NCBI GenBank assembly: GCA_965206595.1
Contig: OZ242214.1
Location: 1,792,001 to 1,856,000, forward strand
From: Candidatus Latescibacterota bacterium
Lineage (GTDB): Bacteria > Latescibacterota > UBA2968 > UBA8231
Length of the DNA stretch: 64,000 bases
Direction of reading: 5' to 3'
Under the pieces are notes generated by a model. That model ran no database searches, was not told the origin of the DNA, and saw nothing but the letters and a program-made list of their open reading frames with translations. A program made the translations under genes and the position numbers. Of the stretch, positions 38,533-46,496 are shown piece by piece. Within the stretch, counting starts at the first letter, position 1; every line of letters starts with the position of its first letter.

Positions 38533-39825
38533 ATGGAACGAGTAGAAATTCGGGACATCGCCGCTTTTGATGGCCGCGAAGTCGAGTTGAGGGGTTGGCT
38601 CTACAACAAGCGGTCGAGCGGCAGGCTCCACTTCCTGCAAGTCAGGGACGGGACCGGCCTCATTCAGTGCGTATTGTTCAAAGGAGATATCGGTGTCGAG
38701 GAGTTCGTGCGTACCGGGAACCTGCCCCAGGAGTCGGCGATTGTCGTCAGGGGGAAGGTGCGCCAGGATCAGCGCTCCGCACTCGGCTACGAACTGGGGG
38801 TCTCATCGATCGAAGAAGTCCACGAGGCCGCCGAATACCCGATTTCACCGAAAGAACACGGGGTGGCCTTCCTGATGGAAAACAGGCACCTCTGGCTGCG
38901 CTCCTCCCGCCCACACGCTACGTTGAGAATCCGCAGCTACGTCATCCAGGCCTGCCGCGACTTCATGGCTCGGGAGGGATTCATCCTGATCGATGCCCCG
39001 ATTCTGACTCCTGCTGCCTGCGAGGGAACCACCACGCTTTTCGAGACCGACTATTTCGGGGACACTGCCTTCCTTACCCAGAGCGGCCAACTGTACATGG
39101 AAGCAGCGGCCATGGCGTTCGGAAAGGTCTACTGCCTGGGACCGACCTTTCGGGCGGAGAAATCGAAGACGCGGCGACACCTTACGGAGTTCTGGATGAT
39201 GGAGCCGGAGATCGCCTACTGCGACCTAGAGGGCAACATGCAGGTTGCCGAAGACCTCATCTGTTTCGTTGTCCAGCGCGTACTCGAACAGGGCGGTGAC
39301 GAGCTCGCTGTGCTGGAGCGCGACCCCGCCCCCCTGGAAGCGATGTCGAAGCCGTTCCCGCGAATGACCTACGACGAGGCGGTCGTAACTCTTCGGAACA
39401 ATGGGAGGGATATCGAGTGGGGAACGGACTTGGGCGCAGACGACGAAAGTGTTCTTTCGGAACAGTTCACTTCACCGGTCCTCGTGCATCGCTACCCTGC
39501 GGAGGTAAAAGCATTTTACATGAAGCGAGATCCGGAGAACGACAAGCTCGCTCTCTGCGTCGACATGCTGGCTCCCGAGGGATACGGGGAGATCATCGGC
39601 GGCGGCCAGCGCGAAGATGATCTGCCGGTCCTCGAGGAACGTCTCGAAGAACACGGCCTGCCGCGAGTGGCCTTCGAGTGGTATCTCGACCTGCGCCGAT
39701 ACGGTTCCGTGCCGCACTCCGGTTTCGGAATGGGGATAGAACGTGTGGTAGGGTGGCTTTGTGGGATCAGGCACGTGCGCGAGACCATACCGTTTCCACG
39801 GATGCTGCAGCGGCTGTATCCTTGA
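38533..39825 (+). CDS. asnS: Asparagine--tRNA ligase
   Basis: [46 protein letters not shown]. Confidence 0.95.
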
Positions 39826-39865
39826 GCAAGTATCGGACGAGACAACGACCTTGAAGACAACAGAG

Positions 39866-42793
39866 ATGAAGGGAAGTTATCGGTTTCAGGAGATTGAACG
39901 TCGCTGGCGTCAGCGATGGCTGGGGGAGAAGACGTTCAAGACGCACGGTCCCGGTGAAAGCTCAATCGCCGATTCCCGGCCCAAGTGTTATGTCCTCGAC
40001 ATGTTTCCCTATCCCAGCGGGGACGGCCTCCACATTGGCCACCCCAAGGGTTACATCGCCAGCGACATCTACAGCCGCTTCAAGAGGATGCGCGGATTCA
40101 ACGTTCTGCACCCGATGGGATTCGACAGCTTCGGCCTGCCTGCGGAACAGTACGCGATCGCCAACAACGTGCACCCGTCCACGGCGATACGCGAATGTAT
40201 CGATCGCATGCGCGGGCAGCTTCAGGCCTTGGGTCTGGCCTACGACTGGGATCGGGAGCTGGCGACTTCGGACTCGGACTACTACCGCTGGACCCAGTGG
40301 ATCTTCCTGCAGCTCTACGACTGCTGGTTCGACCCGGATGCGGTTCAGATGGACGCCGCAGGTCGCGAGATCAAGGGAAAGGCAGTGCCGATCCGGGAGC
40401 TGGAAGATGCACTTGCCAATGGACGGCGTGCTCTCTTCGACCGCGATCTCGAAACCCTGGTCTCGCTTCCAGGAGGGGAAAGCAGAGACCGTTCCCATGC
40501 CGGCTGGTCCCGGCTGACGGAACCGGAACGGGCCGCGGTGCTAAACAACTATCGGTTGGCCTATCAGAAAGAGGTGACGGTCAACTGGTGCCCTGGGCTG
40601 GGCACGGTCCTGGCCAACGAAGAAGTCACTGGGGAGGGCCGTAGCGAGATCGGCGATTACCCAGTGTACAAGCGGCCACTTAGGCAGTGGATGCTGCGTA
40701 TCACCGCCTACGCTGATCGCCTGTTGCACGATCTGGATTCAGCAGATCTGCCCGACGGACGCGGGGGCCGCTACGCCCTGGATTGGCCGGAGCCGATCAA
40801 GCTGATGCAGCGGAACTGGATCGGGCGCAGCGAAGGGGCGGAGATTTTGTTCGACCTGTTGCAGCCGGAATCCCGCGAAACCGCGACGCCCCTGAAAGTG
40901 TTCACGACTCGTCCCGACACCTTGTTCGGGGCAACCTTCATGGTAGTCGCTCCCGGTCACCCGCTTCTCGACCCGGACAGTTCCGGGTATCTCGTGCCCG
41001 CGCATTGGCCCCAAGGCACGAGGGAAGCCTGGAAAAATGGGGGGGCGTCCGGGCCGTGGGAAGTGGTTGCCGACTATGTCGCCACTGCAGCGGAAGCTAT
41101 AGAGGTGGCAAGGGAAATCGACGAACGGGAGAAGTCGGGGGTGTTCACGGGAATATGGGCCCGCAACCCGGCCAGCGGTGTTGTGATTCCGGTTTTTGTC
41201 GCCGACTACGTCTCGATAGAGTACGGAACCGGCGCCATAATGGCGGTTCCCGCGCACGACGACCGCGATTTCGAGTTTGCGAACAACTACGATCTCGAGG
41301 TGATCCAGGTCGTCCAGGCGCCCGAGACCGCCGGGGTGGAAGAGGGGGAGTGCTTCATCGGCGATGGCACCAGCATCAATTCGCCCGCCGACGGCGACAG
41401 CGACTTCTCCATCACGGGCCTGTCGACGGCCCGGGCAAAGGCAGCAATCACCTCTGCACTGGAAAGCGCTGGCGTGGGACGATTTGCGGTTCGCTACAAG
41501 CTGCGCGACTGGACCTTTTCCAGGCAAAGGTACTGGGGAGAACCCTTCCCGCTGGCTACCACCCCCGACGGTTATTCGGTCGTTACCGATCTACCTGTCC
41601 TGCTCCCAGAGATGGAGGACTTCCGTCCGCAAACCTCGGATGATCCCGACACTCCGGTTTCCCTGCCCCTGGGGCGTGCCGGCGACGACTGGCGGGTGGT
41701 CCCCGTAAAGGGAATCGAATGCGAGAGGGAACTGAACGTCATGCCCCAGTGGGCGGGGTCCTGCTGGTATTTCGTGCGCTTTATCGATCCCGCCAACCCA
41801 GAGACATTCTGCAACGCTGACAAGGAGCGGCATTTCATGCCGGTCGATCTCTACATCGGCGGCGCCGAGCACGGGGTGCTTCACCTGCTGTATGCCCGGT
41901 TCTGGCACAAGGTGCTGTTCGACCTGGGGCACGTCTCCTCACCCGAGCCGTTCAAGAAGCTGTTCAATCAGGGAATGATTACGGCCGATGCTTTCACCGA
42001 CGCCCGCGGCGTCTACGTCGACATCCGCGAGGTCGAGCTGCGCGATAACAAACCCTTCCACTTGCGGACCGGGGAGGCCCTGACTCGTTCCGGCGGCAAG
42101 ATGGGGAAGCGCTACAAGAACGGGCTGCCCCCGGAGGAGGTTGGGGAGGAGTACGGCGTCGACACCCTGCGCCTGTACGAAATGTACATGGGCCCCCTCG
42201 AGCAGAGCACGCCGTGGAGCATGGAGGGAATACGAGGAATGCAGCGCTTTCTGCAGCGCGTGTGGCGCAACCTGGTTTCTCAGGAGGGAACGGCCAGGAG
42301 GCTTCCTCCGGGACAAGAGGAAGATGTCGCGTTGCGCAAGAAGCTTCACCGGACGATCTCCAAGGTGACGGATGATATCGAGGGATTGCGGCTTAACACC
42401 GCCATCGCGGCCCTGATCGAGCTCAACAACGACCTGGTAAAAAAGGAGCCGGTTTCGGACGAGATGGCCCGTTCCCTTATCCTGATGCTCTCGCCGTTCG
42501 CCCCTCACCTTGGAGAGGAGCTGTGGAGCATCTGGGGTTTCGGCGACGGAAATCTCTCGGTCCAGGACTGGCCGCGGCCCCAGGCGGATCTGATGGTCGA
42601 AGAGACCGTGATTTTGCCTGTGCAGGTCAACGGCAAGGTCAGGGCGAGCGTTGAAGTGCCAGCCGGAATCACCGAAGACGCGGCAAGAGAGTTGATCCTC
42701 GAACTCGAAAACGTTCGCCGCTACCTTCCGGATTCAGGACGGCCCAGGCGGTTTGTGTACGTGCCAGGTAGAATCTTCAATATCGTAGTCTAG
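39866..42793 (+). CDS. leuS: Leucine--tRNA ligase
   Basis: DMFPYPSG.GLHIGH, FTTRPDT, GTGAIMAVPAHD, SRQRYWG, KMGKR (KMSKS position). Confidence 0.97.
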   Translation: MKGSYRFQEIERRWRQRWLGEKTFKTHGPGESSIADSRPKCYVLDMFPYPSGDGLHIGHPKGYIASDIYSRFKRMRGFNVLHPMGFDSFGLPAEQYAIANNVHPSTAIRECIDRMRGQLQALGLAYDWDRELATSDSDYYRWTQWIFLQLYDCWFDPDAVQMDAAGREIKGKAVPIRELEDALANGRRALFDRDLETLVSLPGGESRDRSHAGWSRLTEPERAAVLNNYRLAYQKEVTVNWCPGLGTVLANEEVTGEGRSEIGDYPVYKRPLRQWMLRITAYADRLLHDLDSADLPDGRGGRYALDWPEPIKLMQRNWIGRSEGAEILFDLLQPESRETATPLKVFTTRPDTLFGATFMVVAPGHPLLDPDSSGYLVPAHWPQGTREAWKNGGASGPWEVVADYVATAAEAIEVAREIDEREKSGVFTGIWARNPASGVVIPVFVADYVSIEYGTGAIMAVPAHDDRDFEFANNYDLEVIQVVQAPETAGVEEGECFIGDGTSINSPADGDSDFSITGLSTARAKAAITSALESAGVGRFAVRYKLRDWTFSRQRYWGEPFPLATTPDGYSVVTDLPVLLPEMEDFRPQTSDDPDTPVSLPLGRAGDDWRVVPVKGIECERELNVMPQWAGSCWYFVRFIDPANPETFCNADKERHFMPVDLYIGGAEHGVLHLLYARFWHKVLFDLGHVSSPEPFKKLFNQGMITADAFTDARGVYVDIREVELRDNKPFHLRTGEALTRSGGKMGKRYKNGLPPEEVGEEYGVDTLRLYEMYMGPLEQSTPWSMEGIRGMQRFLQRVWRNLVSQEGTARRLPPGQEEDVALRKKLHRTISKVTDDIEGLRLNTAIAALIELNNDLVKKEPVSDEMARSLILMLSPFAPHLGEELWSIWGFGDGNLSVQDWPRPQADLMVEETVILPVQVNGKVRASVEVPAGITEDAARELILELENVRRYLPDSGRPRRFVYVPGRIFNIVV

Positions 42794-42832
42794 ATGCTGG
42801 CTGGTTGGATGGTTCCGATTTTCTAAGATGAA

Positions 42833-42860
42833 ATTACCTGTAAAATTTATTTTGTAAACT
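42833..42860 (+). other. dif-like recombination site A (11-6-11)
   Basis: ATTACCTGTAA-AATTTA-TTTTGTAAACT; right arm 10/11 to the B. subtilis dif right arm TTATGTAAACT. Confidence 0.55.
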
Positions 42861-42919
42861 AACCCGCCCCGACTTGGTGAACCGCCCGCCAAAACGGCCT
42901 GTTGGGTACCCGAAAATAA

Positions 42920-42947
42920 ACTTCGTATAATTGTAGTTAACAAAACT
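42920..42947 (+). promoter_or_regulatory. lox/dif-like site B overlapping the probable recombinase promoter
   Basis: ACTTCGTATAA-TTGTAG-TTAACAAAACT; AACTTCGTATA matches 11 of the 13 nt of the loxP arm; contains TATAAT (42926-42931) with TTGGGT 18 bp upstream. Confidence 0.6.
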
Positions 42948-42960
42948 AATCTAAAGACAC

Positions 42961-43890
42961 ATGGCTGAACTTCTCCCTTCAGTATCTCCGAAAGAGCTCG
43001 CCAATTCCGGCACAGTACGGGAACTGGTTACGGCCAGCGTCTCGGAGAACACACGCCGGGCCTATCGGCACGCGCTAAGCAGGATCGACCAGCACCTTGC
43101 CGGGGGTCCGTTGACAGACGGATTGCTTGCCGACTATATCGCGGGCTTGCACGTATCCGGAAAATCTCCGGCGACCTGCTCCCAGGTAATCGCTGCTGTC
43201 AAGTTTCGAGCAAAGTTGCAAGGTTCACCTTCTCCATCCGGTCCGGCAACGGACAGAGTTCTGGCGGGTATTCGCCGCGCGGGCAAGGGCCGCGGTCGTG
43301 GCCAGGTACAGGGCGTTCAGTTTGCCCAGGCGGACGCCGCGGCTGCAGTTGCTTCCGACGACTCATTGGCCGGAATGCGGGACTCCGCCTTGCTGGCTGT
43401 CGCCTCGGATGGCCTGCTCCGCGTTTCGGAAGTCGCCGGTGTGCAAGTAGCCGACATCTCCTTTGAAATCGACGGTACAGCGCGTTTGACGATCCACCAA
43501 TCGAAAACGGATCAAGAAGGAGCCGGAGTCGTTCTGTTCCTCGGCGAGCCGACGGCCTGGCGGGTCAAGACCTGGATGGATGCTGCCGGGATCGAGGATG
43601 GACCCGTTTTCCGGCGTCTTCACCGCGGCGACAGTGTTGGAAAAAAAGCCCTGAGCACCGTATCCGTCCGCAACATCATAAAGCGCCGATGCGCTGCGGC
43701 GGGAATCGACGGAGATGTCTCTGGTCATTCCCTTCGGGTAGGTGGCGCCCAATCTCTTGCTGCGGGAGGTGCTTCGATTGCGGAGATGCAGACTGCCGGC
43801 CGTTGGACATCCCCGCAAATGCCCGGTCACTATGCACGCGGCCAGTTGGCAGCGCGAGGCGCCGTGGCGAGAATCCGTTACGGTTCCTGA
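42961..43890 (+). CDS. Cre-like tyrosine site-specific recombinase
   Basis: SENTRRAY N-domain; RDSALL..GLLRVSE (R), SKTDQ (K), GHSLRVG (HxxR), AGRW (W as in Cre), MPGHY (Y). Confidence 0.93.
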   Translation: MAELLPSVSPKELANSGTVRELVTASVSENTRRAYRHALSRIDQHLAGGPLTDGLLADYIAGLHVSGKSPATCSQVIAAVKFRAKLQGSPSPSGPATDRVLAGIRRAGKGRGRGQVQGVQFAQADAAAAVASDDSLAGMRDSALLAVASDGLLRVSEVAGVQVADISFEIDGTARLTIHQSKTDQEGAGVVLFLGEPTAWRVKTWMDAAGIEDGPVFRRLHRGDSVGKKALSTVSVRNIIKRRCAAAGIDGDVSGHSLRVGGAQSLAAGGASIAEMQTAGRWTSPQMPGHYARGQLAARGAVARIRYGS

Positions 43891-43977
43891 CTGGCCGGGG
43901 TCCCAAGGAACAGTTGATATTCCGCAGACACAGGGTGTTCTGGAATTTCCGGGTAAACCCTCACTAATGTCCCACGG

Positions 43978-44005
43978 GATTTACATAAGAAATATTATGT
44001 GAACT
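43978..44005 (-). other. dif-like recombination site C (11-6-11), inverted relative to site A
   Basis: Minus strand AGTTCACATAA-TATTTC-TTATGTAAATC; ACATAA-N6-TTATGT dyad. Confidence 0.65.
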
Positions 44006-44037
44006 ATGGTTCTAAGAACTCGCCCTTTTTCGGCTGT

Positions 44038-45855
44038 TCAGGTGCGACCGAACAGCCTGTCGAGATGGCTGAGTGTAATCCGAATAAAAATGGGTCTTCC
44101 GTGAGGGCAGGAAAAGGGCTCTTGCGCCTTCAGCAACCGCTGAATCAGGGTCCGCATTTCTTTCTGATTCAGGCGGTCTCCTGCCCGAATTGAAGTGTGG
44201 CAAGCCATCGAAGCCGCGACTGCCTCCTGAGTTGTCGGTCGAGTCTCGTTCTCCTCGATCAGGTCGCTGACGATCTCCTGAAATAGGGCTCCGTCTCCCC
44301 AGTTTCTGAGTTCGCTCGGGATGGAATCGACAATCAGGCTGGTAGGACCGAATTCACGCGCTCCAAAGCCGATTCTTTCGAACAAGTGGCGAGCATCCTG
44401 AAAAGCAATCATCTCCAAGGGAGACACGTCGAGCGTCAGGGGCAACAGCAGCTGTTGGGAGGTTCCCTGCTCCCGGTCGAGCTCCTCCAGAACCTCCTCG
44501 AAACGGATGCGTTCGTGAGCGACGTGCTGGTCGACTATGGCGATGCCGTCCGAGGTCGGTGCCGCGATGTACTTGTTGTGGATCTGCCACATCGGGGCTG
44601 AATCTGCGGCCGATGACAGTTGGTCAATCTCCTGTGGCGTCAGCGGTTGACCTGCACTCTCCGCGGTCCCCAGCCTGGCCGGAGGCAACAGGGAAAGCGA
44701 CAACTGATCGAGGTCGGTATCGTGCTCCGGGCCGAACGGTTCAGCGGGAGTCTCCAGTACCCTGCCGTGTCCCGCTGCCCCGGTAGATGGTGCCCCGTAA
44801 GCAGGTCTCTCCCCCGTCGAGCCGATTCCGGAAGCAGCTCTGAACGCGCTTGCCTCGGGAACGTCTAGTGCCTGTCGCACAATGGATTGCACTGCCTTGA
44901 CGAGATCCCCTTCCGAGGAGAAGTGGACCTCTTTCTTGGTGGGATGGACGTTTACGTCGACGGTCCTGGGATCGATGTCGAGCCAGAGCGCAAATACCGG
45001 GTGCGCATTATGGGGCAACAGGCTGCCGTAAGCTTCGTATACTGCGGAGTTCAATTTCCGGTGGTAAACAGGCCGGCGGCGGACTGTCGCGTATTGCCGG
45101 GTGCGACTGCGCTGACATATTTGCGGGGATCCTGCCAGCACCTCTACCGAGATTCGACCGGCCGCTCCAGCATCGACGTTTGAGGCCGCGTGCAGCAGTA
45201 GGTCCTGGTCGACGGCAACCACCTGAGAGACGCGTTTCGCGCGGTCACCCGAGTGGAGGTCGAGGGTCACGCGGTCGTTGTGGGTCACGCGGAACGCCAC
45301 CTCGGGATAGGCGACGGCTAACTGGGAGACACACTGGGTTATGTAACGGGCTTCGGTATCCATGTGACGGAGGAATTTTCGGCGCGCCGGGGTGTTGAAG
45401 AACAGGCTGCGTGCACTCACCGTAGTGCCGCTGTCCCTGGCGATGGCACCGAGATGAGTACGGACTCCACCTTCCACCTCGATCCGGGTGCCTTCTCCCT
45501 CTCCCCCATTGCAGGTTTCGATGGTCAGCCGGGAAACCGCCGCGATGCTGGCCAAGGCCTCCCCTCGAAATCCCAGTGTGTCGATGGCGAACAGGTCACT
45601 GGGACTCTTCATCTTACTGGTGGCGTGGCGCTCCACCGACAGGCAGGCGTCCCCGGCGTTCATCCCGGCGCCGTCGTCGGCAACGCGGATCAGCTGCCTG
45701 CCCCCGGCAGCGATGTCGACGTAGATGCGTTCCGCGCCCGCATCGAGAGAGTTCTCGACCAGTTCCTTGACCGCTGAGGCCGGTCTTTCTATCACCTCTC
45801 CCGCGGCGATCTTGCCGATTACGTTTTCGGACAGTCTGTGTATGGTCGCACTCAT
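44038..45855 (-). CDS. mutL: DNA mismatch repair protein MutL
   Basis: IAAGEVIERPAS, GFRGEAL, DVNVHPTK, DQHVAHER, ACH, CPHGRP endonuclease motifs. Confidence 0.97.
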   Translation of the reverse strand: MSATIHRLSENVIGKIAAGEVIERPASAVKELVENSLDAGAERIYVDIAAGGRQLIRVADDGAGMNAGDACLSVERHATSKMKSPSDLFAIDTLGFRGEALASIAAVSRLTIETCNGGEGEGTRIEVEGGVRTHLGAIARDSGTTVSARSLFFNTPARRKFLRHMDTEARYITQCVSQLAVAYPEVAFRVTHNDRVTLDLHSGDRAKRVSQVVAVDQDLLLHAASNVDAGAAGRISVEVLAGSPQICQRSRTRQYATVRRRPVYHRKLNSAVYEAYGSLLPHNAHPVFALWLDIDPRTVDVNVHPTKKEVHFSSEGDLVKAVQSIVRQALDVPEASAFRAASGIGSTGERPAYGAPSTGAAGHGRVLETPAEPFGPEHDTDLDQLSLSLLPPARLGTAESAGQPLTPQEIDQLSSAADSAPMWQIHNKYIAAPTSDGIAIVDQHVAHERIRFEEVLEELDREQGTSQQLLLPLTLDVSPLEMIAFQDARHLFERIGFGAREFGPTSLIVDSIPSELRNWGDGALFQEIVSDLIEENETRPTTQEAVAASMACHTSIRAGDRLNQKEMRTLIQRLLKAQEPFSCPHGRPIFIRITLSHLDRLFGRT

Positions 45856-45875
45856 GATTTTGGGGGCTACCGGAG

Positions 45876-46496
45876 TTACAGGCGCGCGGAGATTTCCTCC
45901 ACCTTGCGGTCGCGCTCCTCTATAGAGATCAGTCCTTCGCGGAACTGGCTTTCTACTTCCTGCAGCATCTGTCGAGGACTGCCGAAGCGGAGATTGTTGC
46001 GTGCCTGGGCGACCAGGTGCCAGATCCCCAGCCCGAGCATGCCGAACACGACGGCTGCCCACAGTCCGGTTTTGCGGTGCGTACCCGGCTCCCCTTCCCT
46101 TACGGAAATCCCGAGCTTGCCCCACACCTGCCGTTGCGCAGCAGAGATCGGCTGGCTGAACTCGACAAAGACAGAGCTTGCGGCCGTTCCTCCCTGGTTT
46201 TCGACGTACTCGGGCGCGCGTGGGTCCCCTGCATCGCGCAAATTAAAGGCGCTGCGCAGCTCCGCGGTCAGACTCGCCGGTCCCTGGATGACGATACTTT
46301 CCACCACTCCCGCCTGAGAGAGCTCGAGGAAACGATCCTCGTCCACCGGGGTCGCTTCCCCACCCAGTGCGTTGATCAGAACGAGCACGGCCATTAGGCC
46401 GGAGGCCAGCATCAGGGCCAACCTGACCGGCCCAATGGCCGGAATTTCCGAGTCCGGCCGGGAAGAAGGTCCAACTTTCGGTTCGCGCTCCAGCAT
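45876..46496 (-). CDS. Two-TM membrane protein resembling the FtsH N-terminal/periplasmic module, with SHOCT-like C-terminus
   Basis: TM - FLELSQAGVVESIVIQG - TM - FREGLISIEERDRKVEEI. Confidence 0.55.
   Translation of the reverse strand: MLEREPKVGPSSRPDSEIPAIGPVRLALMLASGLMAVLVLINALGGEATPVDEDRFLELSQAGVVESIVIQGPASLTAELRSAFNLRDAGDPRAPEYVENQGGTAASSVFVEFSQPISAAQRQVWGKLGISVREGEPGTHRKTGLWAAVVFGMLGLGIWHLVAQARNNLRFGSPRQMLQEVESQFREGLISIEERDRKVEEISARL

What the first reader, a model, noticed from the sequence alone, without database searches (positions are those of the whole stretch)
42821..44017. Minimal mobile element: one Cre-like recombinase bounded by inverted dif-like sites and 8-bp direct repeats
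Seen: between convergent leuS and mutL the order is TTCTAAGA - 4 bp - site A (ATTACCTGTAA AATTTA TTTTGTAAACT) - site B - a 309-aa tyrosine recombinase - site C - 4 bp - TTCTAAGA. Site C on the minus strand (AGTTCACATAA TATTTC TTATGTAAATC) aligns with site A at 18/28, and at 15/18 over TAA.ATTT.TT.TGTAAA, so A and C are imperfect terminal inverted repeats with the XerD-like arms facing inward. There is no cargo gene. Known: dif/pdif sites are 11-6-11 with a TTATGT(T/A)AA arm; Acinetobacter dif modules are flanked by inversely oriented pdif sites; the R-K-HxxR-W-Y catalytic set is that of Cre. Inference: an IS-sized element moved or inverted by its own Cre-like enzyme or by host XerCD, architecturally like a bacterial counterpart of eukaryotic cryptons. 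I do not recognise it as a described IS family, but cannot confirm novelty without searches.
Basis: partly seen in the sequence, partly recalled or inferred. Interest (0 to 1): 0.85.

Follow-up and report, generated by a model that had tools for sequence, protein, structure and literature searches.

The report
Cre-like recombinase cassette at chromosomal dif
The supposed mini-transposon is really the chromosome's replication-terminus (dif) locus, where a Cre-like recombinase with its own target site sits in the slot that related bacteria fill with a different Xer-type recombinase.

Summary

- **No further copies.** No other copy in the 7.05-Mb genome has these ends.
- **Synteny.** The gene lies between leuS and mutL in two same-genus genomes and one genome of another genus. 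dN/dS is about 0.1.
- **TTCTAAGA repeat.** It is not conserved, and half of site C is deleted in one relative.
- **Site A** is the family-wide chromosomal dif-like site just after leuS.
- **Site B** is the palindromic site that this Cre-like family carries in front of its gene in many phyla.
- **Site C** is a second, dispensable dif-like site.
- **Position.** The locus sits at the GC-skew switch, taken here as the replication terminus, in five genomes.
- **Same slot, different gene.** In 19 other family genomes this slot holds an unrelated Xer-like recombinase ("XerF") with its own palindromic site. The genomes that carry the Cre-like gene lack XerF.

Best reading: a resident recombinase-plus-site cassette that displaced XerF at dif. 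It probably resolves chromosome dimers, but that function is inferred, not shown. The dif-module-like flanks and a cargo swap within one genus leave some support for past cassette mobility.

The parts
39761..42793 (+). leuS (leucine--tRNA ligase), left neighbour, converging on the locus
   Evidence: ORF. TIGR00396 scores 878.5 bits against a cut-off of 548.4.
42821..42828 (.). Left copy of the 8-nt direct repeat TTCTAAGA. It lies in leuS-proximal sequence that is homologous in G001, where it reads TTCTGAAA.
   Evidence: (D20). It is not conserved as a repeat in G001 or G002.
42833..42860 (+). Site A: the chromosomal dif-like site of the family (XerC-type arm, 6-nt spacer, XerD-type arm TTTTGTAAACT)
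   Evidence: It is conserved in G001 and G002 with variable spacers. A site in the same position and orientation, 33-220 nt after leuS, is found in 18 of 30 family loci under the <=2-mismatch rule, including XerF genomes. It is unique in the genome.
42920..42947 (+). Site B: palindromic 11-6-11 site, read as the cognate core site of the Cre-like recombinase. It contains a TATAAT hexamer (42926-42931).
   Evidence: It is conserved in G001, G002 and G019. Sites of the same type lie within 180 nt upstream of the gene in 15 of 53 homologue loci from many phyla, a 30-fold enrichment over the rest of those loci. It is unique in the genome. In G019 the TATAAT is preceded by TTGACA at 17 nt.
42961..43890 (+). 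Cre-like tyrosine recombinase, 309 aa
   Evidence: The catalytic R-K-H-R-W-Y residues are invariant. dN/dS is 0.10-0.12 within the genus.
43978..44005 (.). Site C: second dif-like site, nearly palindromic, with both arms of the XerD type
   Evidence: It is the only ATAA-N6-TTATGTNAA in the genome. It is full-length in G002, has a positional counterpart in G019, and has its outer half deleted in G001.
44010..44017 (.). Right copy of TTCTAAGA, 20 nt beyond the mutL stop codon
   Evidence: It lies inside the 41 nt that G001 lacks.
44038..46125 (-). mutL, right neighbour, converging on the locus
   Evidence: ORF. TIGR00585 scores 470 bits against a cut-off of 180.

Best explanation
The interval is the replication-terminus dif locus of a Candidatus Latescibacterota chromosome, not a transposon.

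Site A is the family's ancestral dif-like site beside leuS. Site B plus the gene is a recombinase-and-site cassette of a Cre-like family that is spread horizontally through many phyla. Site C is a second, dispensable dif-like site on the mutL side.

The cassette occupies the slot where most of the family encodes a different, single-copy Xer-like recombinase (here called XerF) with its own palindromic site. It has displaced XerF in this genus and in one genome of another genus, and it has since been kept by purifying selection.

Most likely mechanism (inferred, not shown): the enzyme binds the two arms of B and recombines B with the B of the sister chromosome at the terminus. This would resolve chromosome dimers, as Cre/loxP does for P1 plasmid dimers and as XerS/difSL and XerH/difH do for chromosomes. 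Binding at B, which contains a -10-like hexamer, may also repress its own promoter.
For: **Terminus position**
- In G000 the cumulative GC skew climbs to 1.835 Mb, where the locus lies, then plateaus to 1.90 Mb and falls. The global maximum is at 1,875,671.
- G002 and G019 show local skew switches at their loci.
- In the XerF genomes G004 and G047 the local skew maximum lies 1.4 kb and 1.1 kb from the locus.

**Sites**
- A, B and C are unique in the genome, so the only available partner for each is the sister copy.
- B-type sites are 30-fold enriched just upstream of homologues in 15 of 53 loci.

**Synteny and selection**
- Orthologues of 87%, 85% and 64% identity lie between leuS and mutL in G001, G002 and G019.
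- dN/dS is 0.10-0.12 at dS 0.6-1.0.
- Site arms are conserved while spacers vary.

**Displacement of XerF**
- 19 of 30 leuS-downstream loci hold XerF. The XerF proteins are 60-82% identical to each other and 23-32% identical to P0001.
- XerF is found as one copy in 30 of 41 family genomes. It is not found in G000, G001, G002 or G019.

**Stability.** Contigs from three studies carry the same arrangement, with no joints at A or C.

**Precedents.** difSL lies immediately upstream of xerS (PMC1914069, passages read). Single-recombinase dif sites lie near their xer gene (PMC9765430, passages read). Cre-type target sites usually lie next to the gene (PMC10250229, passages read).
Against: - No experiment or read-level evidence shows recombination at B, or at any of the sites.
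- The genome keeps a XerD-like core gene and a XerC-like one. A canonical Xer system could therefore serve site A and leave the cassette without a host role. However, the XerC-like protein has lost its catalytic Tyr and His residues in this genus.
- Single-copy homologues in a Binatia genome and a Trueperaceae genome are not at skew switches. Other family members are multi-copy and recently mobile. Dimer resolution is therefore not the family's general job.
- G000's skew is a 65-kb plateau rather than a sharp peak.
- XerF's own function is unknown.
- The TTCTAAGA repeat (p about 0.001-0.007) is left unexplained.
Confidence: 0.55

Rival explanations
1. dif-module-like mobile cassette. The segment between the inversely oriented dif-like sites is exchanged by Xer-type recombination at those sites, as proposed for Acinetobacter pdif modules. 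The Cre-like gene is merely its cargo, or a selfish passenger, with no role for the host.
For: - Inverted dif-like sites with XerD-type arms inward flank the recombinase gene in G000, G002, G019, G004 and G020.
- Within genus g18, G019 carries the Cre-like cargo and G044 and G049 carry XerF. The leuS-side site pair is shared by G019 and G049, and the mutL-side site aligns between G019 and G044.
- The family occurs in many phyla at 40-67% identity and in several copies per genome.
- A paralogue lies in a 2.6-kb unit that is 97.8% identical between two species.
Against: - No second copy of this unit exists anywhere in G000.
- The A and C spacers differ in both orientations in G000 and in G002, so they are not a matched pair now.
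- G001 lost half of C yet keeps an intact gene.
- Purifying selection has acted over dS of about 1.
- Contigs from three studies show no alternative junction.
- The loss of XerF exactly where the Cre-like gene sits points to a functional substitute.
Confidence: 0.2
2. One reading: an IS-sized element with terminal inverted dif-like repeats (A, C) and an 8-nt target duplication. It would be transposed or inverted by its own Cre-like enzyme, as a bacterial crypton-like element.
For: - The A/C inverted match is 15/18 and the exact 8-nt direct repeats lie at equal 4-nt offsets.
- Such a repeat is rare by chance: 0.08% at equal offset.
Against: - Site A is the family dif, present next to leuS in XerF genomes too.
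- No other copies have these ends.
- The gene is syntenic in two genera.
- The repeat is absent in G001 and G002, and the left copy lies in sequence homologous to G001's leuS-proximal flank.
- G001 lacks half of C.
- Tyrosine recombinases do not make target duplications (established knowledge).
Confidence: 0.03
3. The Cre-like enzyme works at the dif-like sites A and/or C together with the XerD-like protein. It would stand in for the catalytically dead XerC-like partner, rather than acting alone at B.
For: - The XerC-like orthologue has Tyr->Ser and His->Arg changes in G000, G001 and G002 and is degenerate in G019. It is intact in G005, G012, G046, G047 and G010.
- The XerD-like gene is retained.
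- The arms of A, B and C share an A.TT.....AA pattern.
Against: - The XerC-like protein is also degenerate in the XerF genomes G044, G004 and G018, so its decay is not tied to the Cre-like gene.
- Heteromeric action of a Cre-type enzyme with a Xer-type enzyme has no precedent known to me.
- B-type sites next to the gene are the family-wide feature.
Confidence: 0.07
4. Invertible segment. Recombination between the inverted sites A and C (or A and B) flips the gene or its promoter as a switch.
For: - A and C are in inverted orientation. The right arm of A and the right arm of B form a 17-nt, 82% inverted match 72 nt apart.
- The Cre-like gene has the opposite orientation to XerF in the same slot.
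Against: - All four Cre-like loci have one orientation and all 19 XerF loci the other.
- The spacers of A, B and C differ from one another.
- No inverted form appears in the contigs of three studies, although contigs can miss rare forms.
Confidence: 0.05

Closest known systems
Cre/loxP of phage P1 and plasmid-borne Cre-type recombinases
   Same: - Cre is the nearest solved structure by sequence: 17 Cre or Cre-derived sequences are the only matches, best E 1.7e-19.
- The catalytic R-K-H-R-W-Y set is the same.
- A single enzyme has a palindromic site beside its gene (PMC10250229, passages read).
- Phage matches are almost all P1/P7-type cre. 1885 plasmid records hold relatives.
- Cre's natural role in resolving P1 dimers is recalled knowledge.
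   Different: - Identity is only about 32% over the C-terminal 56% of the protein.
- The site has dif-like 11-6-11 geometry with ATAA/TTAT inner ends, not the 13-8-13 geometry stated for loxP in PMC10250229.
- It is chromosomal, at the terminus, between housekeeping genes.
Single-recombinase Xer modules: XerS/difSL (streptococci, lactococci) and XerH/difH (Helicobacter, Campylobacter)
   Same: - The recombinase gene lies directly beside its site at the replication terminus.
- The module is thought to have been acquired as a unit (PMC1914069 and PMC9765430, passages read).
- The site is AT-rich, partly palindromic and unique.
   Different: - The protein is not a Xer family member by NCBIfam scores: XerD 43 bits against a cut-off of 330, XerA 41 bits, and XerS and XerH not listed.
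- The genome also keeps XerD-like and XerC-like genes.
- Two further dif-like sites flank the cassette.
XerL/dif of Legionellales
   Same: It is a non-canonical single recombinase for chromosome dimers, found through a terminus-located, partly palindromic site. It has a link to a mobile element and a plasmid-borne orthologue (PMC9765430, abstract and passages read).
   Different: In L. pneumophila xerL lies more than 400 kb from dif (same paper). I made no sequence comparison with XerL.
Acinetobacter pdif/dif modules
   Same: A gene is bounded by inversely oriented XerC/XerD-type sites. Different cargo is found between like flanks (PMC12907356 abstract read; PMC6449649 seen in the search listing only).
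   Different: - Here there is one module per genome, at the main chromosomal dif, and its cargo is itself a recombinase.
- No identical module was found in a second context.
- The flanking spacers are unmatched.
IMEX (integrative mobile elements exploiting Xer, e.g. CTXphi, LME-1)
   Same: Foreign DNA sits at dif between two dif-like sites (PMC9765430 abstract; the IMEX papers appear in the listing only).
   Different: IMEXs use the host Xer enzymes and are flanked by directly repeated sites. This unit brings its own recombinase, and its flanks read best as inverted.
Eukaryotic Cryptons
   Same: A tyrosine recombinase would be the only gene of the putative element.
   Different: There are no multiple copies, no evidence of transposition, and the gene is syntenic and vertically inherited.

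Membership tests
Tyrosine recombinase, Cre type | Phage_integrase catalytic domain | tested here: met
   PF00589, E 1e-14, 55 bits against a cut-off of 27.
Tyrosine recombinase, Cre type | Catalytic R, K, H-x-x-R, W and Y, with Trp rather than the His of Xer enzymes | tested here: met
   R154, K182, H256, R259, W282 and Y291 align with the Cre residues. They are invariant in 7 of 7 sequences.
Tyrosine recombinase, Cre type | Closest solved relative is Cre | tested here: met
   All 17 PDB sequences matched at E<=0.01 are Cre or Cre-derived. No Xer, integrase or Flp chain is listed.
Tyrosine recombinase, Cre type | lox-type site: two 13-nt arms around an 8-nt spacer | tested here: not met
   The gene-proximal sites of the family fit 11-6-11 with TAA-N6-TTA inner ends. 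The loxP geometry is taken from PMC10250229.
Xer/dif chromosome dimer resolution system (single-recombinase type) | Site at the replication terminus | tested here: met
   GC-skew switch or plateau edge at the locus in G000, G002 and G019. Sharp switches at the homologous slot in G004 and G047.
Xer/dif chromosome dimer resolution system (single-recombinase type) | Site unique in the chromosome, AT-rich, about 28 nt, partly palindromic, non-coding | tested here: met
Xer/dif chromosome dimer resolution system (single-recombinase type) | Recombinase is a member of a Xer family (XerC/D/S/H/A) | tested here: not met
   The best NCBIfam scores are XerD 43 bits (cut-off 330), XerA 41 bits (cut-off 220) and XerC 34 bits (cut-off 335).
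Xer/dif chromosome dimer resolution system (single-recombinase type) | Recombination at the site resolves dimers; loss gives segregation defects; FtsK dependence | not testable with these tools
   This needs genetics or an E. coli dif-replacement assay.
Insertion sequence / transposon with terminal inverted repeats and target duplication | Several copies, or copies in other genomes, with the same ends at different places | tested here: not met
   Only the locus itself matches the ends. The other four DNA matches cover coding sequence at 66-69% identity. Paralogue flanks differ. Downstream C-like sites are seen only in the terminus orthologues, plus one unrelated hit, among 80 loci.
Insertion sequence / transposon with terminal inverted repeats and target duplication | Target-site duplication bounding the insertion, and an empty site in relatives | tested here: not met
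   TTCTAAGA is repeated only in G000. None of the 30 leuS-downstream loci shows an empty junction. They hold XerF or the Cre-like gene, or are truncated or rearranged.
dif module (Acinetobacter type) | Bounded by inversely oriented XerC/XerD-type sites | tested here: met
   G000, G002, G019, G004 and G020 have a leuS-side site on the + strand and a mutL-side site on the - strand, with XerD-type arms inward. G001 has only half of the second site.
dif module (Acinetobacter type) | The same module found in different backbones, or different cargo between the same sites | tested here: inconclusive
   The cargo differs between G019 (Cre-like) and G044/G049 (XerF), with partly alignable flanking sites. 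The Cre-like module was not found in any second context.
IMEX | No recombinase of its own; directly repeated dif-like sites after integration at dif | tested here: not met
   The unit encodes its own recombinase. A matches C slightly better inverted (18/28) than direct (16/28) (counted by hand).

The most novel reading that the evidence does not exclude
The terminus dif locus of this Latescibacterota family is a slot bounded by dif-like sites. It holds interchangeable single-recombinase cassettes: either XerF with its palindromic site, or a Cre-type enzyme with a lox/dif-like site.

In this genus a horizontally acquired Cre-type system has taken over chromosome dimer resolution from a Xer-type one. 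That would be a natural counterpart of the laboratory replacement of dif by loxP/Cre. It happened in a lineage whose XerC-like protein is catalytically dead.
Probability: 0.3. Interest if true: 0.75.

Novelty: new variant of a known kind. Interest (0 to 1): 0.55.

Why it matters
If the Cre-like cassette does resolve chromosome dimers, three things follow.
- The dimer-resolution function can be handed from a Xer-type enzyme to a Cre-type enzyme by cassette replacement at dif. So far that has only been done by engineering.
- It would add a fifth kind of single-recombinase system beside XerS, XerH, XerA and XerL.
- It would supply a compact enzyme with an 11-6-11 site, a format of interest for genome engineering.

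It also flags an uncultured phylum with three Xer-like core genes, one of which has repeatedly lost its catalytic residues. If the cassette is only a passenger, the locus is still a clear chromosomal example of dif-module-like cargo exchange outside Acinetobacter.

Tried and rejected
- **Other copies of the unit.** DNA and protein searches of the whole genome found only diverged paralogues without these ends.
- **A 28-nt motif recurring at five places.** It looked like a partner site but is the end of an ordinary 1.39-kb insertion sequence.
- **A general role of the family at termini.** Two single-copy homologues, in a Binatia and a Trueperaceae genome, are not at skew switches.
- **A short 83%-identical fragment in G013.** It lies beside a transposase-like ORF, not beside leuS or mutL.
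- **Promoter and terminator scan of 42700-44150.** It gave one promoter-like hit inside the gene and nothing at B, no more than in shuffles. The TATAAT in B lacks a good -35 in G000.
- **Rfam on the 2.6-kb paralogue unit.** No match at E<=0.1.
- **Strict palindrome scan (>=9 of 11) upstream of homologues.** It found 11 of 53 loci against 3 of 53 in-gene controls, and several of the hits were unrelated GC-rich palindromes. I replaced it with the motif-based count.
- **Sequencing runs.** No RNA holder was listed. Only Logan contigs were available, so rare inversion or circle forms cannot be excluded. The joints reported at 42417-42623 lie inside leuS and come from short contigs with other letters between the sides.
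- **Not done.** No KOPS-type polarity analysis. Paper supplements were not seen and could hold site lists relevant to PMC10250229.
- **Literature.** Five full-text searches turned up no description of a Cre-type gene inside a chromosomal dif locus, or of Xer systems in Latescibacterota. This is a limited search, not proof of absence. The 1995 paper on functional replacement of dif by loxP/Cre is recalled. I saw only its title phrase counted in the listing.
Full report
**What is in the sequence**

The order is:
- TTCTAAGA, 42821-42828
- 4 nt
- site A, 42833-42860
- site B, 42920-42947
- a 309-aa ORF, 42961-43890
- site C, 43978-44005
- 4 nt
- TTCTAAGA, 44010-44017

The interval lies between convergent leuS and mutL, both confirmed above their curated cut-offs. 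The repeat finder recovers the 8-nt direct repeat and the 18-nt, 83% A/C inverted match.

The protein has the Phage_integrase domain. Its only matches among solved structures at E<=0.01 are 17 Cre or Cre-derived sequences, best E 1.7e-19. R154, K182, H256, R259, W282 and Y291 align with the Cre catalytic residues. These six are invariant in seven aligned relatives.

Site C is nearly palindromic. By hand, A matches C at 18/28 inverted and at 16/28 direct, so the claimed inverted orientation is only weakly defined.

**Is it more than chance?**

- The sites are. ATAA-N6-TTATGTNAA occurs at one place in the 7,053,161-base genome, and that place is site C. A, B and C are each unique at >=17 of 22 arm positions, apart from one 17/22 match to A.
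- The 8-nt repeat is unusual but not overwhelming. A shared 8-mer between two 20-nt flanks at this spacing occurs in 0.65% of 2,000,000 random pairs, and in 0.08% at equal offsets.

**The locus is the replication terminus**

The window is G000:C1:1792001-1856000 of a single 7.05-Mb contig.
- G000: the cumulative GC skew rises to 1.835 Mb, exactly where the locus lies. It stays flat to about 1.90 Mb, with the global maximum at 1,875,671, and then falls.
- G002: the skew turns steeply negative at the locus.
- G019: the locus lies on the local maximum plateau.
- G004 and G047: these hold the other recombinase in the same slot. Their local cumulative maxima are at 400,937 and 741,529, against loci at about 399,560 and 742,640.

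The leuS|mutL interval is therefore the skew switch, taken as the terminus, across the family.

**Relatives carry the gene syntenically**

- Of 41 related genomes, 12 have a match at E<=1e-20.
- The same-genus genomes G001 (87%) and G002 (85%) and the other-genus genome G019 (64%) carry it between leuS and mutL.
- dN/dS is 0.10-0.12 within the genus at dS 0.6-1.0.
- In these loci the arms of A and B, and of C in G002, are conserved while the 6-nt spacers differ. The spacers of A are AATTTA, AAATTA and ATTTCA. Those of B are TTGTAG, TTACAG and TTCACG. Those of C are GAAATA and AGTTGT. This is the pattern expected of real tyrosine-recombinase core sites.
- The TTCTAAGA repeat is not conserved. 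G001 reads TTCTGAAA on the left and lacks the right copy. G002 has site A directly after the leuS stop.
- G001 has a clean 41-nt deletion that removes the outer arm of C and the right repeat. C is therefore dispensable.
- Contigs from three independent studies carry 42300-44500 in the same arrangement, with 0-2 substitutions and one 1-nt insertion. None has a joint at A or C. Contigs cannot exclude rare forms.

**What each site is**

*Site A.* Downstream of leuS, on the same strand and 33-220 nt from its end, 18 of 30 family loci have a site of the form (variable arm ending ...ATAA)-N6-TTATGTAAAxx under a <=2-mismatch rule. Two of the 30 loci had fewer than 80 nt to examine. G000's own A has 3 mismatches, and G016's site was seen only with the looser pattern. 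Most of these genomes lack the Cre-like gene. A is therefore the family's orthologous chromosomal dif-like site, not the end of an insert.

*Site B.* Among 53 near-full-length homologue loci from many phyla, TAA-N6-TTA sites with >=7 of 11 palindromic arm positions occur 17 times in the 12.7 kb around the gene starts. They occur 15 times in the remaining 336 kb. That is a 30-fold enrichment, spread over 15 of the 53 loci. The arm consensus is ACTTCYGATAA, and the spacer usually begins TT on the sense strand. B fits this pattern. I therefore read B as the enzyme's own site.

B contains a TATAAT hexamer in G000, G001, G002 and G019. In G019 it is preceded by TTGACA at 17 nt. In G000 the consensus scan found no promoter there.

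*Site C.* Both of its arms resemble the XerD-type arm. Counterparts on the mutL side, in inverted orientation to the leuS-side site, occur in G002 and G019 and also in the XerF genomes G004, G020 and G018.

**A different recombinase fills the slot elsewhere**

- In 19 of 30 leuS-downstream loci the next gene is a 312-346-aa tyrosine recombinase on the opposite strand. I call it XerF. The XerF proteins are 60-82% identical to one another and 23-32% identical to P0001.
- XerF is Xer-like: XerC 126 bits and XerD 118 bits, both below the cut-offs.
- Most XerF genes have a palindromic site, ACTAACnATAA-N6-TTATnGTTAGT, just upstream of the start.
- XerF is found as a single match in 30 of 41 family genomes at E<=1e-40. 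It is not found in G000, G001, G002 or G019. The other seven genomes without it are G005, G013, G014, G017, G050, G052 and G053, of which four are <=84% complete and two have leuS loci cut short by a contig end.
- G044 and G049, of the same genus as G019, have XerF. G019 shares the two leuS-side sites with G049, and its mutL-side site aligns with one in G044, but the cargo between them differs.

So the Cre-like gene plus B has displaced XerF plus its site in situ, at least once in genus g1 and once in or near G019.

**The wider Cre-like family is mobile**

- The organism is a Candidatus Latescibacterota MAG.
- Homologues of 40-67% identity occur in MAGs labelled Poribacteria, Binatia, Acidobacteriota, Dehalococcoidia, Gammaproteobacteria and others, often in several copies.
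- One 23.1-kb record holds three copies spaced 9,605 nt apart, as a concatemer of a small replicon would.
- In the plasmid collection 1885 records match, the best at about 33%. In the phage collection the matches are almost all P1/P7-type cre.
- A paralogue in G000 lies in a 2.6-kb unit with sharp ends. It is 97.8% identical to a copy in G001, and two G001 copies are 98.5% identical. That is closer than the terminus orthologues are to each other.
- Single-copy homologues in a Binatia and a Trueperaceae genome are not at skew switches.

The terminus position is therefore special to the Latescibacterota copies, not a property of the family.

**Mechanism**

Shown here:
- the position at the skew switch;
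- the uniqueness and conservation of the sites;
- the family-wide link between the gene and a B-type site;
- purifying selection;
- the mutual exclusion with XerF.

Inferred: the enzyme acts alone on B, and, because B has no other partner in the genome, it acts on the sister copy to resolve chromosome dimers.

The precedents are single-recombinase modules whose site lies next to the gene at the terminus (PMC1914069 and PMC9765430, passages read). Cre-type enzymes also usually have their target sites next to the gene (PMC10250229, passages read).

Against this:
- Nothing demonstrates activity.
- A XerD-like core gene is present in 39 of 41 genomes and a XerC-like one in 40 of 41, so site A may be served by them.
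- XerF's own role is unknown.

The XerC-like protein has lost its catalytic Tyr and His residues in G000, G001, G002, G019 and G044. It is degenerate in G004 and G018 and intact in G005, G012, G046, G047 and G010. Some lineages therefore appear to need another catalytic partner. This decay is not specific to genomes with the Cre-like gene.

**Comparison and novelty**

- It works like, and is closest in sequence to, Cre.
- In layout it is closest to the XerS/difSL and XerH/difH modules, but it fails the Xer membership test.
- It shares the inverted flanking sites and the cargo exchange of Acinetobacter dif modules (PMC12907356, abstract read), but it was not found in a second context.
- It is not an IS.

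I rate it a new variant of a known kind: a Cre-type recombinase-and-site cassette resident in a chromosomal dif locus, in place of a Xer-type one. Five literature searches found no description of such a case.

**Verdict**

- Observation: confirmed.
- Interpretation as a minimal transposable element: not supported, although the dif-module flavour is partly supported.
- What it is (terminus dif locus with a resident, displaced cassette): high confidence.
- What it does (dimer resolution at B): moderate confidence.
- Unexplained: the exact 8-nt repeat in G000, and why a second, inverted dif-like site recurs on the mutL side.

Noticed in passing
G000:C1:5102859-5103728 (outside the window; loci L202-L213): The family's core XerC-like recombinase has lost catalytic residues. 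The nucleophile Tyr is replaced by Ser and two His by Arg in G000, G001 and G002. It is also degenerate in G019, G044, G004 and G018, and intact in G005, G012, G046, G047 and G010. The dead form is still well conserved (92% and 77% identity within the genus).
   Followed up: partly
Family loci L055-L081 (downstream of leuS): 'XerF' is a single-copy Xer-like recombinase encoded at the skew switch in 30 of 41 family genomes. It has a near-perfect palindromic site, ACTAACnATAA-N6-TTATnGTTAGT, just upstream of its start. The family thus has three Xer-like core genes. XerF's role is unknown.
   Followed up: partly
G000:C1:3455273-3457893 (locus L214): A 2.6-kb unit with sharp ends holds a 312-aa paralogue of the Cre-like recombinase at its right end, a B-like site about 430 nt upstream of it, and 1.2 kb of GC-rich sequence without a convincing ORF. 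It is 97.8% identical to a copy in G001, and two G001 copies are 98.5% identical. It looks recently mobile. There is no Rfam match.
   Followed up: partly
G000:C1 about 1347500-1349440 and 5997077-5998224: These paralogue loci have tandemly repeated N-terminal-domain segments (a 652-aa open frame) and partial second copies. The 5.997-Mb copy is preceded by a small ORF whose translation looks like an AlpA/excisionase-type regulator. That name is from recall, not from a search.
   Followed up: no
G000:C1 upstream of 1045623 (minus-strand paralogue, 53% identical): An AT-rich inverted repeat (two arms of about 13 nt around a 9-nt centre, AAACTTTAGCATA...CATACTAAAGTTT) lies upstream of the gene. 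It may be this paralogue's own site.
   Followed up: no
G000:C1 at 292817, 967896, 2142271, 3267277 and 3339190: A 1.39-kb repeat occurs in at least five copies at 99.4-99.9% identity. It is an ordinary insertion sequence whose end happens to fit the loose dif-like pattern.
   Followed up: yes
Loci L096-L098 (one 23,101-nt record labelled chromosome 2 of a Vicinamibacterales MAG): Three copies of a 57%-identical homologue are spaced exactly 9,605 nt apart. The record looks like a concatemer of a 9.6-kb circular replicon that carries the recombinase.
   Followed up: no
window 42912 and 42930: Strain variants appear in contigs of two other studies: an extra A after 42912, and A>T at 42930, the last base of the left arm of site B.
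   Followed up: no
G019 locus L058/L020 and G049 locus L060: Two dif-like sites in opposite orientation lie about 25 nt apart directly after leuS, with nothing between them, in both a Cre-like genome and a XerF genome. The terminus region therefore holds an array of alternating dif-like sites.
   Followed up: partly
G010 locus L073: The C-terminal part of leuS is partly repeated downstream of the gene (extra matches to residues 67-200).
   Followed up: no
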